This document shows positions 39,663-42,470 of a stretch of DNA of 42,794 nt, one piece after another; within the stretch, counting starts at the first letter, position 1; the number at the start of each line of letters is the position of its first letter. This DNA comes from Candidatus Nealsonbacteria bacterium. Its GTDB lineage: Bacteria; Patescibacteriota; Minisyncoccia; Minisyncoccales; MHMH01. The notes beneath the pieces were generated by a model. That model ran no database searches and was not told the origin of the DNA. It worked only from the letters and a program-made list of their open reading frames with translations. The stretch is from NCBI GenBank assembly GCA_016181985.1, contig JACOYG010000001.1, forward strand, positions 1-42,794, written 5' to 3'. The position numbers and the translations under genes were made by a program.

Positions 39663-40542
39663 TTTAAACGGCATTAAGGTTAAAAATCGGATTTGGCTGG
39701 CGGCAGGAGCTGGCGGTTATGGAGAAGGTTGGCCGCATCAAAAACCATTTATTAAACTAGGATTGATTGATTTCTCTGCTTTTGGCGCAATAATCACCAG
39801 AACTTTGACTCCCGAATCAAGACAGGGTAATTATATTGACCCATTTGAATTTGAAAATGCGACATTGGTGTCGCATTTATGTCGCATTTTTTCTGAAGAA
39901 AGAAAGAGAGTTTTAAGAAAAGTGCTGGGCGGCTGGATTAACAATGTGGGCTGGTGGAATGTGGGAATTAATTATTGGATAGAAAAGATTTATCCCTGGC
40001 TCCACGATGTCGCAATTATTCCCAATATCGGCGGATTTACAATTTACCACTACGTAGATTCTATCAGGAAACTTAATCATCTGGATATCGTCGGTATTGA
40101 AATTAATATCTCCTGTCCTAATATTGAGCATCCCTTATCTAAAGATCCGGCAGAACTTATGAAGTTATTTACCTTTTGCCGTGAGTCATCGGATTATCCT
40201 TTTATTGTAAAATTAGGCATAGATTCTGACTATGTTCAGATAGCCAGACTCGCCGAATATTGCGGCTTTAACGCTGTCTCGGCGATCAATGCAATCCCAG
40301 CGTTAGGCGGCGGGTATTCGGGCTCTGCCATCAAGCCAATTGCCTTAAAAGTGGTAGCGGATTTGAAGAAAGCCGTGAAAATACCGGTAATCGGCGGCGG
40401 AGGAATTGCCTCCCTGAAAGATTGCCAAGAATTTTTTGAAGTTGGCGCCGATGCCGTTGCGTTAGGCTCCGGATTTTTATTGAAGCCCTGGGAGCCGACC
40501 AGAATTGCTAAAAAATATGAAAAAGTAAAGGACCAGAAATGA
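39655..40542 (+). CDS. pyrD: Dihydroorotate dehydrogenase family 1-like flavoenzyme
   Basis: TRTLTPESRQGN, NNVGWWNVG, EINISCPN, GGYSGSAIKPIAL, IGGGGI and GADAVALGS match the class 1 DHOD / dihydropyrimidine dehydrogenase PreA-like fold motifs. Confidence 0.7.
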   Translation: MLDLNGIKVKNRIWLAAGAGGYGEGWPHQKPFIKLGLIDFSAFGAIITRTLTPESRQGNYIDPFEFENATLVSHLCRIFSEERKRVLRKVLGGWINNVGWWNVGINYWIEKIYPWLHDVAIIPNIGGFTIYHYVDSIRKLNHLDIVGIEINISCPNIEHPLSKDPAELMKLFTFCRESSDYPFIVKLGIDSDYVQIARLAEYCGFNAVSAINAIPALGGGYSGSAIKPIALKVVADLKKAVKIPVIGGGGIASLKDCQEFFEVGADAVALGSGFLLKPWEPTRIAKKYEKVKDQK

Positions 40543-40559
40543 ATCTGGTCCTTTTGTTT
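40528..40559. terminator. Bidirectional Rho-independent terminator (pyrD-like gene and the minus-strand RNA)
   Basis: AAGGACCAGA / TCTGGTCCTT 10 bp stem spanning the pyrD-like stop codon. TTTTGTTT on the plus strand and a T-rich tract on the minus strand. Confidence 0.75.
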
Positions 40560-40892
40560 CGTGTCTTGTAATAGACCGAGGGTGGGAGGGGGCAGCACCG
40601 ACTTATCAGCCGCGAGCAAAGGCCAGCGGCTACACAGTGAGGTGCTTAACGGCCCCCTCCCTACCGTTTTTCTGGCGAAGCGGCACATATCCGCTATCGC
40701 CGACCTGCCGGTACCTAATGACTTGGCGCTACCGGCTTGCGCCAGTAAACACTGGTAGATTCCCTTCGCGACGGGTAACCTCCAGCAAGAAAGGAGTCTT
40801 TTAGACACGAGGTTTTGAGGCCGGGGCCGTCAAAACTCCCTTCTTGCCGGAGGCAACGCCTCACAGCTCCCAAGCTAAGATCTATCCTCTAA
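40545..40892 (-). ncRNA. Candidate ~350 nt highly structured stand-alone RNA of unknown class
   Basis: GC-rich island with no credible ORF. Consensus promoter immediately upstream and terminator downstream. Multiple long helices whose only non-Watson-Crick positions are G:U on the minus strand (C:A on the plus strand), for example CCUCCGGCAAGAAGGGA / UCCUUUCUUGCUGGAGG. Confidence 0.6.
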
Positions 40893-40898
40893 CAAAAC

Positions 40899-40959
40899 AG
40901 TATAGCATGCCATTAAAAATTTGTCAAGACCTTGACAGGTTTTTATATTTTGATAGAAT
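40899..40959. promoter_or_regulatory. Back-to-back divergent sigma70-type promoters (minus: structured RNA; plus: nusA leader)
   Basis: Minus strand TTGACA (40922-40927) - 17 nt - TATACT (40899-40904). Plus strand TTGACA (40932-40937) - 16 nt - TAGAAT (40954-40959). Confidence 0.65.
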
Positions 40960-40988
40960 AAAATTAGATTAGAAAGATAAGAATTTTT

Positions 40989-41016
40989 TATCCGTTGGAA
41001 GACGGATACTTTTTTT
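40989..41016 (+). terminator. Leader terminator/attenuator hairpin upstream of nusA
   Basis: TATCCGT-TGGAAG-ACGGATA followed by CTTTTTTT, about 30-50 nt downstream of the plus-strand promoter and about 110 nt before the nusA ATG. Confidence 0.55.
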
Positions 41017-41027
41017 GAAAATCCCAA

Positions 41028-41123
41028 GCACGAAATCCTAAATCCGAAACGTATTTTGAATTTTGAAATTTAGAATTTAAATATTATTTCGAATTTCGAT
41101 ATTCGAATTTAGAATTTAATTTT
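41028..41123 (+). repeat. AT-rich palindromic repeat element copy N1 (immediately upstream of the nusA ATG)
   Basis: AAATCCCAAGCACGAAATCCTAAATCCGAAAC...AATTTAAATATTATTTCGAATTTCGATATT. The 30 nt right-hand core is identical to copy N2. Confidence 0.8.
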
Positions 41124-42470
41124 ATGTTTGATATCAAAAATTTTACTGCGGCGATCGCTCAAATTGCGGAAGAAAAGGGCATCTCCAAAGAGAAGGTTTT
41201 CGAAACAATCGAGATGGCTCTCGCCGCCGCCTACAAAAAAGATTACGGCGAAAAGGGCCAGATTATAAAAGCCAAACTCGACACGGTGTCGGGTTCGGTT
41301 AAGTTTTGGCAGGTAAAGCAGGTCTTAACCGAAGACATGATTTACACCGAGGAGGAGTTGGAAGCTATGAAAGATGAGAAAAATGAGGGGCCCGCCTCCG
41401 CTGAAGCTACGGCGGGCGAAGGAAAGGTCCGTTTTAATACGGAAAAGCACATAATGCTTAATGAAGCTAAAAAAATAAATCCCAAAATTAAGGCCGGAGA
41501 AGATCTGGAAACCATTTTGGAGACCCGCGAAGATTACGGCAGAATCGCCGCCCAAACCGCAAAACAGGTTATTTTGCAAAGAATAAAAGAAGCGGAAAGG
41601 GAATTTATTTTTTCCGAGTTTAAGTCAAAAGAAGGGGAGATACTTTCCGGCATCGTCCAGAGGGTGGAAGGCGGTTTGGTTTTTATGGATATTGGCAAAA
41701 CCCTGGGTTTATTGCCAAGGGAAGAGCAGGTCCCCGGAGAATTTTATCGTCCCGGCCAACGGCTTAAGGTTTATCTTTTAAGCGTGGAAGAAACGCCGAA
41801 AGGCCCGGCTATTCTTTTATCGCGGGCTTACCCAAAACTTATTTCCAAGCTTTTTGAATTGGAGGTTCCTGAGGTTTCCGCCGGCACGGTGGTCGTTAAA
41901 TCCGTGGCTAGGGAAGCCGGATCACGCTCCAAAATAGCGGTTGTTTCTTTGGCTGAAGGCGTAGACCCCATAGGCTCAATGGTTGGCCAAAGAGGCACGA
42001 GAGTTTCAGCGGTAATCAATGAGCTGGGAGGAGAAAAGATTGATATCATCGAATGGAAAGAAGCTCCGGAAGAATACATCGCCAACGCGCTGTCTCCGGC
42101 TAAAGTTGTCGAAGTTAGAATTTTACCGAAAAATAAAGCGTTAGCTGTCGTCCCGAACGATCAGCTTTCTTTGGCTATTGGCAAGGAGGGCCAAAACGTC
42201 AGACTGGCCGCGAAGCTTACCGGCTGGAAAATAGACGTAAGAAGCCCGGAACAAGCAGGGATCACGGTGACGGAAGAAACAGAAGAAAAAACAGAGGAAC
42301 CCTTCGACGCGGCTCAGGGCAAGGAGAAAAAGGAGGAGCTGGCCCAAGGCCAGTCCGCCTCGGGCGGAAAGCCAAAAAAGAAAAGAGCAACCAAAAAGAA
42401 ATCCGAAGCACGAAGCACGAAATCCGAAACAAATTCAAATGACGAAAATTCAAAATCCAAAACGGTTTAG
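41124..42470 (+). CDS. nusA: Transcription termination/antitermination factor NusA with repeat-derived C-terminal tail
   Basis: N-terminal domain, S1 (GEILSGIVQRVEGGLVFMDIG) and two KH domains (GQRGTRVSAVINELGGEKIDI; GKEGQNVRLAAKLTGWKIDV). The last ~24 codons and the stop lie inside repeat copy N2. Confidence 0.92.
   Translation: MFDIKNFTAAIAQIAEEKGISKEKVFETIEMALAAAYKKDYGEKGQIIKAKLDTVSGSVKFWQVKQVLTEDMIYTEEELEAMKDEKNEGPASAEATAGEGKVRFNTEKHIMLNEAKKINPKIKAGEDLETILETREDYGRIAAQTAKQVILQRIKEAEREFIFSEFKSKEGEILSGIVQRVEGGLVFMDIGKTLGLLPREEQVPGEFYRPGQRLKVYLLSVEETPKGPAILLSRAYPKLISKLFELEVPEVSAGTVVVKSVAREAGSRSKIAVVSLAEGVDPIGSMVGQRGTRVSAVINELGGEKIDIIEWKEAPEEYIANALSPAKVVEVRILPKNKALAVVPNDQLSLAIGKEGQNVRLAAKLTGWKIDVRSPEQAGITVTEETEEKTEEPFDAAQGKEKKEELAQGQSASGGKPKKKRATKKKSEARSTKSETNSNDENSKSKTV

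What the first reader, a model, noticed from the sequence alone, without database searches (positions are those of the whole stretch)
40545..40892. Stand-alone ~350 nt GC-rich structured RNA of unknown class
The 580 bp between the pyrD-like gene and nusA contains a GC-rich island with no credible ORF; the 190 aa track ORF overlaps pyrD antisense. On the minus strand it has a textbook promoter (TTGACA-17-TATACT) and ends at a strong terminator. At least six helices can be drawn by hand: a terminal AUAGAUC/GGUCUAU closing stem; a 17 bp helix CCUCCGGCAAGAAGGGA/UCCUUUCUUGCUGGAGG enclosing a GUUUUGA...UCAAAAC hairpin; CCAGU/ACUGG; GGCGC/GCGCC; GGCGA(U)AGCGG/CCGCUUCGCC; and GGGAGGGGGC/GCCCCCUCCC enclosing AGCACC/GGUGCU and AGCCGC/GCGGCU. 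In the 17 bp helix and the closing stem, the non-Watson-Crick positions are G:U on the minus strand but C:A on the plus strand, which fixes the transcribed strand. I could not find the RNase P P4 signature (GGAAAGUCC...ACAGAA), a tmRNA T-arm or CCA end, or the SRP GGAA-loop motif. An AAGGGAAUC ... AAGUCAUUAGGUACCGGC stretch vaguely recalls cobalamin-riboswitch elements, but there is no downstream gene to regulate.
Basis: partly seen in the sequence, partly recalled or inferred. Interest (0 to 1): 0.65.

Follow-up and report, generated by a model that had tools for sequence, protein, structure and literature searches.

The report
Unclassified structured RNA gene beside nusA
A roughly 335-base, heavily folded RNA gene with its own promoter and terminator sits next to nusA in a groundwater Nealsonbacteria-like (CPR) bacterium. 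It matches no described RNA family, has only a few fast-diverging relatives, and its function is unknown.

Summary
Folding is far better than shuffles (z = -9.4) and better than on the plus strand.

Rfam 15 gives no credible hit at gathering score or at E<=10, and ARAGORN finds no tmRNA. The overlapping ORFs have no Pfam hit and are not conserved.

One full-length homologue exists (L001/L092), plus three partial variants in groundwater metagenomes. Related lineages carry a ~115-nt RNA at the same nusA-divergent position, with the same promoter type and 5' motif. Reciprocal covariance-model hits link this small RNA to the long-helix domain of the large one.

The RNA is absent from that spot in the closest relatives, so it is an accessory, fast-evolving gene, not RNase P, tmRNA or SRP RNA. 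Covariation is thin: one compensatory pair in the 22-bp helix. No transcript data exist.

Best reading: a real, stand-alone ncRNA of an undescribed CPR family built from GGGAG/CUCCC hairpin modules. The mechanism (Shine-Dalgarno (SD)/anti-SD-type pairing or protein binding) is inferred only. Interest is moderate.

The parts
40899..40927 (-). Sigma-70-type promoter of the RNA: TTGACA-17 nt-TATACT with an extended -10 TG. It lies back-to-back with the nusA promoter (40932-40959, plus strand).
   Evidence: 11 of 12 matches. The same arrangement is seen in L008, with 12 of 12 on both strands, and in L001, L005 and L007.
40560..40893 (-). RNA body of about 335 nt. The start near G40893 is inferred from promoter spacing and from the shared GUUAG 5' end. 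It is a 57.5% GC island.
   Evidence: No Rfam hit.
40867..40893 (-). 5' motif GUUAGAG-N-UAGCUUGGGAG, shared with the L001 large RNA and with the ~115-nt RNAs of L005-L014.
40879..40886 (-). 5' strand of the closing stem (GAUAGAUC). It pairs with 40570-40577.
   Evidence: (pair probability 0.94-0.97).
40570..40577 (-). 3' strand of the closing stem (GGUCUAUU). GUCUAUUA is identical in L001.
40778..40854 (-). Long-helix domain: an 18-22 bp helix (CCUCC...GGGAG / CUCC...GGAGG) capped by small hairpins. It is the most conserved part of the family and the part matched by the small-RNA covariance model.
   Evidence: (22 pairs: 18 invariant, 2 one-sided changes, 1 compensatory, 1 broken). Partial variants V3-V5.
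40752..40778 (-). Conserved, mostly unpaired junction UUACCCGUCGCGAAGGGAAUCUACCAG. L001 has UUACUCGUCCGGAAGAGAAUCUACCAG and variant V3 has GAACCUGCCAG.
40674..40755 (-). Three middle hairpins (CCAGU/ACUGG; GCCGGUA/UACCGGC or GGCGC/GCGCC; GGCGA.AGCGG/CCGCU.UCGCC). They are absent from L001, so this is a lineage-specific insertion.
40584..40661 (-). 3' G-run/C-run hairpin: GGGAGGGGGC/GCCCCCUCCC enclosing AGCACC/GGUGCU and UAGCCGC/GCGGCUG. L001 has an analogous GGGGGAGCCA/UGGCUCCCCC hairpin.
   Evidence: repeat I13.
40527..40554 (-). Intrinsic terminator (11-bp stem plus U-rich tail). It is bidirectional and also closes the convergent pyrD-like gene.

Best explanation
This is a genuine, independently transcribed non-coding RNA gene of a family not yet described in Rfam. 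The family is restricted, as far as can be seen, to Nealsonbacteria-like CPR bacteria from groundwater.

Architecture and transcription (shown):
- The RNA is read from a near-consensus promoter placed back-to-back with the nusA promoter.
- It folds into a multi-helix structure of about 335 nt and ends at an intrinsic terminator.

Family relationship (probable):
- It belongs with a ~115-nt RNA found at the same nusA-divergent position in sister lineages.
- That small RNA is a long hairpin with a UUGGGAG/CUCCCAA stem. In its predicted fold it displays UUCCCUCCUUA, which resembles the 16S 3' anti-Shine-Dalgarno (anti-SD) tail.
- The large form looks like nested or duplicated copies of this GGGAG/CUCCC hairpin module plus lineage-specific insertions.
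- In the large form the CCUCC element is locked against GGAGG in the 18-22 bp helix. A purine-rich junction (GAAGGGAAUCUACCAG) is the conserved exposed segment.

Mechanism (inferred, not shown):
- It is a stable trans-acting RNA that works through its exposed conserved single strands.
- The options are pairing with complementary SD/anti-SD-type sequences of a few mRNAs, or binding and titrating an RNA-binding protein.
- It is an accessory gene, not part of the core translation or processing machinery.
For: Gene signals
- Promoter and terminator in the right order on the strand that folds best.
- A GC island in an AT-rich spacer.
- z = -9.4 against shuffles.

Not coding, not a known family, not mobile DNA
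- No Pfam hit for any overlapping ORF, and the ORFs are not conserved between homologues.
- No Rfam family at gathering score or at E<=10, for the window or for L001. No tmRNA.
- No phage or plasmid match.

Homologue L001/L092
- The promoter, 5' motif, long helix and junction are conserved, while large insertions and deletions (not multiples of three) lie between them.
- L001 itself folds at z = -7.5.
- In the long helix 97.7% of cells are paired, against 48-64% when one strand is slid. There is one compensatory and two one-sided changes.

Further variants
- Three partial variants keep the helix and CCUCC in other groundwater genomes.

Small RNA at the same locus
- It has a 12-of-12 promoter and a terminator and folds at z about -5.5.
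- It shows a compensatory U:A to C:G change and three one-sided changes in its stem.
- Model R1 (small RNA) hits the long-helix domain of L001 (30.8 bits, E about 6e-6) and of the window (25.3 bits, E = 2e-4).
- Model R2 (large-RNA helix domain) returns the small RNAs as top hits in 98 kb (E = 6e-5 and 0.012).
- The regex for the shared 5' motif hits only these RNA starts in the CPR loci.
Against: - No transcript evidence: no RNA run holds the sequence.
- Only two full-length sequences exist, so covariation is statistically empty. In the shuffle control 261 of 500 shuffles reach the observed score.
- The RNA is missing upstream of nusA in the closest relatives: NusA 79-91% identical in L004, L018, L019 and L093 (those nearer than L001 at 83% are L018 at 91%, L004 at 89% and L095 at 84%). 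It is also missing in L002, L003, L094 and L095.
- One exact-pattern scan of 185,579 species genomes found only chance hits.
- The link between the small and large forms rests on marginal covariance-model scores. Generic terminator hairpins score only 4-10 bits lower, and E-values from the shortened calibration are rough.
- By homology a UGGGAG/CUCCCA pairing would be expected, but in this sequence it is disfavoured by 9 kcal/mol.
- The closing stem is not the preferred fold in L001.
- The SD/anti-SD idea is weakened because this genome hardly uses SD sequences: 7 of 36 genes against a 13% background.
Confidence: 0.55

Rival explanations
1. It is a highly divergent copy of a universal housekeeping RNA (RNase P RNA, tmRNA, SRP RNA or 6S RNA) that the covariance models fail to recognise in CPR bacteria.
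For: The size (about 335 nt) and the paired 5' and 3' ends fit RNase P or tmRNA. CPR RNAs are often atypical. By hand, GA(A)GGG/CCCUC and UGGGAG/CUCCCA pairings can be drawn in a P2/P4-like crossing order (sequence inspection only).
Against: - No RNase P, tmRNA, SRP or 6S model appears even at E<=10 in a 701-nt search, nor in L001.
- ARAGORN is negative.
- No GGAAAGUCC/ACAGAA signature, T-arm with CCA end, or GGAA-loop motif is present (sequence).
- A universal RNA would not shrink to 115 nt in sister lineages.
- This variability of the locus in the nearest relatives adds little by itself, since the rest of their genomes could not be searched.
Confidence: 0.04
2. It is a cis-regulatory leader (an orphan riboswitch or attenuator) whose regulated gene has been lost or lies downstream.
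For: In L001 the RNA ends in a hairpin without a U-tract. It is followed by a strong SD and a 26-aa Trp-rich ORF, MRRNFWNNFWNQKWTLRPVAHCAEGS. The structure is complex and riboswitch-sized. The small RNA gives a sub-threshold Phe_leader hit of 29 bits against a 55-bit cut-off.
Against: - In the window, and in the small-RNA loci, the transcript runs into a strong terminator and then into a convergent gene, so there is nothing to regulate.
- No riboswitch family hits, cobalamin included.
- The Phe_leader alignment is carried by the terminator and generic stems.
Confidence: 0.07
3. It is a non-functional or selfish GC-rich palindromic insertion (a MITE-like or recombination remnant) in a hypervariable spot upstream of nusA. 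On this view it is transcribed only incidentally, if at all.
For: - The pyrD-nusA interval is highly variable. It holds the RNA here, two small ORFs in L004, nothing in L018/L019, and other genes in L001.
- The most conserved part is a long, nearly perfect inverted repeat that recurs with unrelated flanks in V3-V5.
- Distribution is narrow.
Against: - The RNA keeps a near-consensus promoter and a terminator in every full copy.
- It is single copy in the window and in L001.
- Variant contig depths fit separate genomes, not repeats.
- The unpaired junction is as conserved as the helix.
- G:U pairs make the structure strand-specific.
- No transposase or terminal repeats flank it.
Confidence: 0.12
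4. The region encodes one or more small proteins.
For: Open frames of 190, 52, 65 and 55 aa overlap it. A gene caller annotated an 87-aa 'gene' on the L001 copy.
Against: - No Pfam hits.
- The 190-aa frame is mostly antisense to the pyrD-like gene.
- Window and L001 ORFs share no similarity (E = 30).
- Insertions and deletions between the homologues are not multiples of three, and frames are broken by stops.
- No SD or start context is present.
Confidence: 0.03

Closest known systems
Lineage-restricted orphan structured ncRNAs found by comparative genomics (e.g. raiA, OLE, ROOL/GOLLD, Bacteroidales-1 and Chlorobi-1 type motifs)
   Same: It is a stand-alone gene with its own promoter and terminator. 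It is a GC-rich island in AT-rich DNA with many helices. No coding potential is detected and no function is known (family knowledge from memory; features).
   Different: None of those families matches (Rfam 15). This RNA is narrower in distribution, varies in size from about 115 to about 390 nt, and is dispensable among close relatives.
C-rich base-pairing sRNAs that target Shine-Dalgarno regions (RsaE/RoxS type)
   Same: In the predicted fold of the ~115-nt relatives, an invariant C/U-rich stretch (UUUCCCCCUAUUCCCUCCUUA) is largely unpaired, flanked by stems and followed by an intrinsic terminator. RsaE/RoxS properties are recalled from memory.
   Different: There is no sequence or covariance-model similarity. 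In the window RNA the CCUCC is buried in an 18-22 bp helix. The host genome uses few SD sequences. The RNA is three times larger than typical sRNAs.
Bacterial RNase P RNA (type A/B)
   Same: Similar length, paired termini and multi-domain architecture.
   Different: No hit to RF00010, RF00011 or any RNase P model at E<=10. The conserved P4/CR sequences are absent. The RNA is absent or miniaturised in close relatives.
   Same: Only a vague AAGGGAAUC-type resemblance.
   Different: No hit at E<=10, no B12 box, and no downstream gene.

Membership tests
RNase P RNA (Rfam RF00010, RF00011 and related) | Covariance-model score at or near the gathering threshold | tested here: not met
   No RNase P model is listed at gathering score or at E<=10 on 701 nt. 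The same holds for L001.
RNase P RNA | Conserved P4 sequences (GGAAAGUCC ... ACAGAA..GGCUUA) | tested here: not met
   Absent from the sequence read. Only loose GGUCUAUUA and GAAGGGAAUC look-alikes are present.
tmRNA | tRNA-like acceptor and T-arm, CCA end and tag reading frame | tested here: not met
   ARAGORN finds 4 tRNAs and no tmRNA in the window. No Rfam tmRNA hit.
SRP RNA (small or large bacterial) | Domain IV helix with GNRA loop and conserved symmetric and asymmetric loops, as detected by RF00169 or RF01854 | tested here: not met
   No hit at E<=10 for the window RNA, the small RNA or L001.
6S RNA | A single long irregular hairpin of about 180 nt with a large central bubble (RF00013) | tested here: not met
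   No Rfam hit. The predicted fold is multi-branched, not a bubble hairpin.
Cobalamin or other riboswitches | Aptamer covariance-model match and a downstream regulated gene | tested here: not met
   No riboswitch family at E<=10. A terminator and then a convergent gene follow.
Large ornate RNAs in Rfam (OLE, GOLLD, ROOL, HEARO, raiA) | Covariance-model match | tested here: not met
   Searches list none.
Proposed nusA-divergent RNA family of Nealsonbacteria (defined here) | Consensus promoter back-to-back with the nusA promoter, with the transcript starting GUUA(G) | tested here: met
   Window, L008, L005 and L007. In L001 the promoter and 5' motif are kept, but the gene lies 3 kb from nusA.
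Proposed nusA-divergent RNA family of Nealsonbacteria (defined here) | GGGAG/CUCCC long-hairpin module with a CCUCC element | tested here: inconclusive
   Reciprocal covariance-model hits link the small RNA and the long-helix domain. The scores are only modestly above those of generic hairpins, and only 2 to 3 sequences stand behind each model.
Proposed nusA-divergent RNA family of Nealsonbacteria (defined here) | Statistically supported covariation of the helices | tested here: inconclusive
   One compensatory pair in the large-RNA helix and one in the small-RNA stem. There are too few sequences for a test.
Proposed nusA-divergent RNA family of Nealsonbacteria (defined here) | A discrete transcript of the predicted size and ends | not testable with these tools
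   No RNA run holds the sequence. Only DNA metagenomes do.

The most novel reading that the evidence does not exclude
This would be a previously unrecognised, rapidly evolving family of CPR-specific RNAs built from repeated SD/anti-SD-like hairpin modules. The small form displays a copy of the 16S 3' tail (CCUCCUUA) and the large form carries it as an internal SD:anti-SD duplex. The host genome is largely leaderless and poor in SD sequences. This points to a dedicated translation-control or ribosome-associated RNA, in a bacterial group where the 16S anti-SD motif itself is often reported missing (PMC9297842).
Probability: 0.12. Interest if true: 0.8.

Novelty: new member of a known kind. Interest (0 to 1): 0.5.

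Why it matters
No paper on CPR ncRNAs turned up in the literature searches run here. CPR (Patescibacteria) bacteria have tiny genomes (background knowledge).

A strongly promoted, highly structured RNA that no Rfam model recognises is a concrete entry point into that unknown RNA biology. It also appears to grow from about 115 nt to 335-390 nt by adding modules at one locus.

If its CCUCC/GGAGG modules do act on translation in a genome that barely uses Shine-Dalgarno sequences, it would bear on how initiation is controlled in these organisms. If it is only a lineage-specific sRNA, it is still a clean candidate for a new Rfam family.

Tried and rejected
Known-family tests
- Rfam at gathering score and at E<=10 on the window, on L001 and on the small RNA gave nothing credible. 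Scanning 130 kb of related loci found only tRNAs, so I could not check whether canonical RNase P is detectable in this lineage.
- ARAGORN was negative for tmRNA.

Collection scans
- The exact-pattern scan of genome contigs with TTACN{6,8}GAAGRGAATCTACCAG returned three chance hits in coding DNA of unrelated phyla.
- The metagenome-contig scan returned only L092, which matches L001 over the RNA region shown.
- Three viral-contig scans returned chance hits or nothing.
- blastn against phage and plasmid records found no match.

Synteny walking
The large RNA turned up only in L001, and small RNAs in L005-L014.
- The interval is otherwise occupied by unrelated small ORFs or is absent.

Sequencing runs and read laying
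- No RNA runs were listed.
- Laying L001 on runs X1-X4 gave nothing.

Ideas dropped
- Forcing the homology-predicted UGGGAG/CUCCCA pairing costs 9 kcal/mol and has probability about 0.
- I drew an RNase P-like P2/P4 topology by hand but dropped it for lack of any model support.
- A target search for the junction's complement in the window found only the RNA itself.
- An 11-nt loop-to-3'-hairpin complementarity (repeat I14) is not conserved in L001 and was not pursued.
- Literature searches found no paper describing CPR ncRNAs of this kind.

Full report
**Setting.** NusA encoded at 41124-42470 is 83-91% identical to NusA proteins of metagenome-assembled 'Candidatus Nealsonbacteria' and Paceibacterota. 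The DNA occurs in groundwater metagenomes. The finding lies in the 580-bp gap between a DHO_dh-family (pyrD-like) gene ending at 40542 and nusA.

On the minus strand there is a TTGACA-17-TATACT promoter with an extended -10 TG at 40927..40899. An 11-bp terminator hairpin at 40527-40554 is followed by a U-rich tail.
- Between them lies a 57.5% GC body. The spacer to nusA is 24.8% GC.
- The minus strand folds to -183.6 kcal/mol, z = -9.4 against dinucleotide shuffles. The plus strand gives -161.3 kcal/mol, z = -7.2.
- The 8-bp closing stem has pair probability about 0.95.
- GGCGC/GCGCC competes with GCCGGUA/UACCGGC, which the MFE prefers.
- The terminator is bidirectional and overlaps the pyrD-like stop codon.

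**It is not coding and not a known RNA.**
- The overlapping ORFs (190, 52, 65 and 55 aa) have no Pfam match.
- The ORFs over the two homologous copies share no similarity.
- cmscan against all 4227 Rfam 15 families finds only four tRNAs elsewhere in the window.
- At E<=10 on the 701-nt interval, only noise appears. The homologue L001 gives the same result.
- ARAGORN finds no tmRNA.
- There is no similarity to phage or plasmid records.
- So RNase P, tmRNA, SRP, 6S, cobalamin and the large ornate RNAs were tested and not met.

**Relatives of the large RNA.** Walking NusA homologues' contigs gave one full-length homologue: L001, minus strand about 3290-2880 (nhmmer E = 1e-11). The same sequence is in L092.
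- Shared between the two: the promoter, GUUAGAG, UAGCUUGGGA, the long helix, and the junction UUACYCGUCNNGAAGRGAAUCUACCAG. The 3' GUCUAUUA and a G-run/C-run 3' hairpin are also shared.
- Between these blocks lie large insertions and deletions. The window has three extra hairpins, and L001 has a duplicated 5' unit and a bigger helix apex.
- L001 folds at z = -7.5.
- In the 22-bp helix, 18 pairs are invariant, 2 change on one side, 1 is compensatory (A:U to G:C) and 1 breaks. Pairing is 97.7%, against 48-64% for slid registers. With two sequences the shuffle control is uninformative.
- Read laying on groundwater runs revealed three more partial variants, V3-V5. They keep CCUCC plus the helix but have different flanks. 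In V3 the junction reads GAACCUGCCAG. This explains why exact-pattern scans failed.
- The scan of 185,579 species genomes gave only chance hits.

**A small RNA at the same locus.** In L005/L006 and L007-L014 (NusA 83% identical) the same position and orientation holds a ~115-nt RNA.
- It has 12-of-12 consensus promoters back-to-back with the nusA promoter, and a canonical terminator.
- It begins GUUAGCU..UAGCUGAUUGGGAG, like the window RNA (GUUAGAG..UAGCUUGGGAG).
- It folds (z about -5.5) into a 24-bp stem with an apical three-way junction. In that predicted fold an invariant C-rich loop contains CCUCCUUA, which is also the 3' end of E. coli 16S rRNA (from memory).
- Its stem shows one compensatory and three one-sided changes. 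It too has no Rfam match.
- A covariance model of the small RNA (R1) hits the long-helix domain of L001 (30.8 bits) and of the window (25.3 bits, E = 2e-4 in 93 kb).
- A model of the large RNA's helix domain (R2) returns the small RNAs as its best hits in 98 kb (E = 6e-5 and 0.012).
- Generic terminator hairpins score only somewhat lower, so I rate the relationship as probable, not proven.
- Taken together with the shared 5' motif, the large RNA looks like nested or duplicated GGGAG/CUCCC hairpin modules with added domains.

**Distribution.** The RNA is not at the nusA locus in L002, L003, L004, L018, L019, L093, L094 or L095.
- L004 (NusA 89% identical) has two small ORFs at exactly this spot.
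- L018 and L019 (91% and 81%) lack both the pyrD-like gene and the RNA.
- The gene is therefore accessory and sits in a hypervariable interval.

**Mechanism.** What is shown is the gene architecture, the strand, the strong predicted structure, partial conservation, and the exclusion of known families. What is inferred is that it is a stable trans-acting RNA.
- Its conserved exposed segments are the candidate working parts. These are the purine-rich junction in the large form and the C-rich anti-SD-like loop in the small form.
- They could act by pairing with SD/anti-SD-type sequences or by binding a protein.
- This genome uses few SD sequences: 7 of 36 genes, against a 13% background. Many genes look leaderless: 8 of 36 have a -10 box 4-10 nt before the start, against a 4.6% background.
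- This fits the report that the 16S anti-SD motif is undetected in about half of Parcubacteria (PMC9297842).
- It cuts both ways. Broad SD targeting becomes unlikely, but a CCUCC/GGAGG RNA in such a genome is curious.

**Rivals** are a divergent housekeeping RNA, an orphan cis-leader, a selfish palindromic insertion, and a coding region. The cis-leader idea gains something from L001, where an SD and a Trp-rich 26-aa ORF follow the RNA. All four rate low, for the reasons given in their sections.

**Verdict.** This is a real and well-described feature. I classify it as a new family within the known kind of stand-alone structured bacterial ncRNAs. Its distribution is narrow, it evolves fast, its function is unknown, and there is no expression evidence. 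Interest is moderate (0.5).

Noticed in passing
window 40932-41123 (+), hairpin 40989-41008; also L008 866-886, L002, L003, L005, L007, L094: nusA has its own near-consensus promoter (TTGACA-16-TAGAAT) and a ~160-nt leader. The leader contains a conserved terminator-like hairpin (..CCGUUGGAAxCGG..) plus a U-run, seen in every relative examined except L018/L019, where the hairpin sequence differs. It is probably a leader attenuator, possibly for NusA autoregulation as known from other bacteria (from memory).
   Followed up: partly
window 41052-41123: AT-rich tandem and palindromic units (TTCGAATTTAGAATTT type, period about 18/33) lie just upstream of the nusA start. Hundreds of other contigs in the same groundwater metagenomes match them at 80-90% identity. 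Word depth reaches 17,500 against about 40 for the flanks. All Logan contigs of this genome break here.
   Followed up: partly
whole window (36 ORFs of at least 120 aa): Only 7 of 36 genes have an SD-like motif upstream, against a 13% background. Eight of 36 have a 5-of-6 or better -10 box ending 4-10 nt before the start codon, against a 4.6% background. This suggests widespread leaderless mRNAs and fits PMC9297842 on missing anti-SD motifs in Parcubacteria.
   Followed up: partly
L001 2771-2851 (-), identical in L092: Directly after the L001 copy of the RNA comes a hairpin without a U-tract, then a strong SD (AAGGAGG). It precedes a 26-aa Trp-rich ORF, MRRNFWNNFWNQKWTLRPVAHCAEGS. A tryptophanase-family (Beta_elim_lyase) gene lies immediately upstream of the RNA.
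   Followed up: no
L002 6373-7024 (-) and L004 7704-8500 (-): Where other genomes carry the RNA, these carry pairs of small promoter-driven ORFs with strong SDs and no Pfam family. The two L002 ORFs look like paralogues. The interval upstream of nusA behaves as a cassette hotspot.
   Followed up: no
L001 10949-11564; L004 13187-14083 and 19524-19989: Toxin-antitoxin-like pairs (Gp49 with HTH; DUF6922 with AbiEii) and a Fic gene cluster around the nusA-PPase-ClpP block in relatives. This is further sign of an accessory-gene-rich neighbourhood.
   Followed up: no
window 40646-40656 and 40823-40833: An 11-nt complementarity links the apical loop of the long-helix domain (UUGACGGCCCC) and the 5' side of the 3' hairpin (GGGGCCGUUAA). 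It could be a long-range or alternative pairing, but it is not evident in L001.
   Followed up: partly
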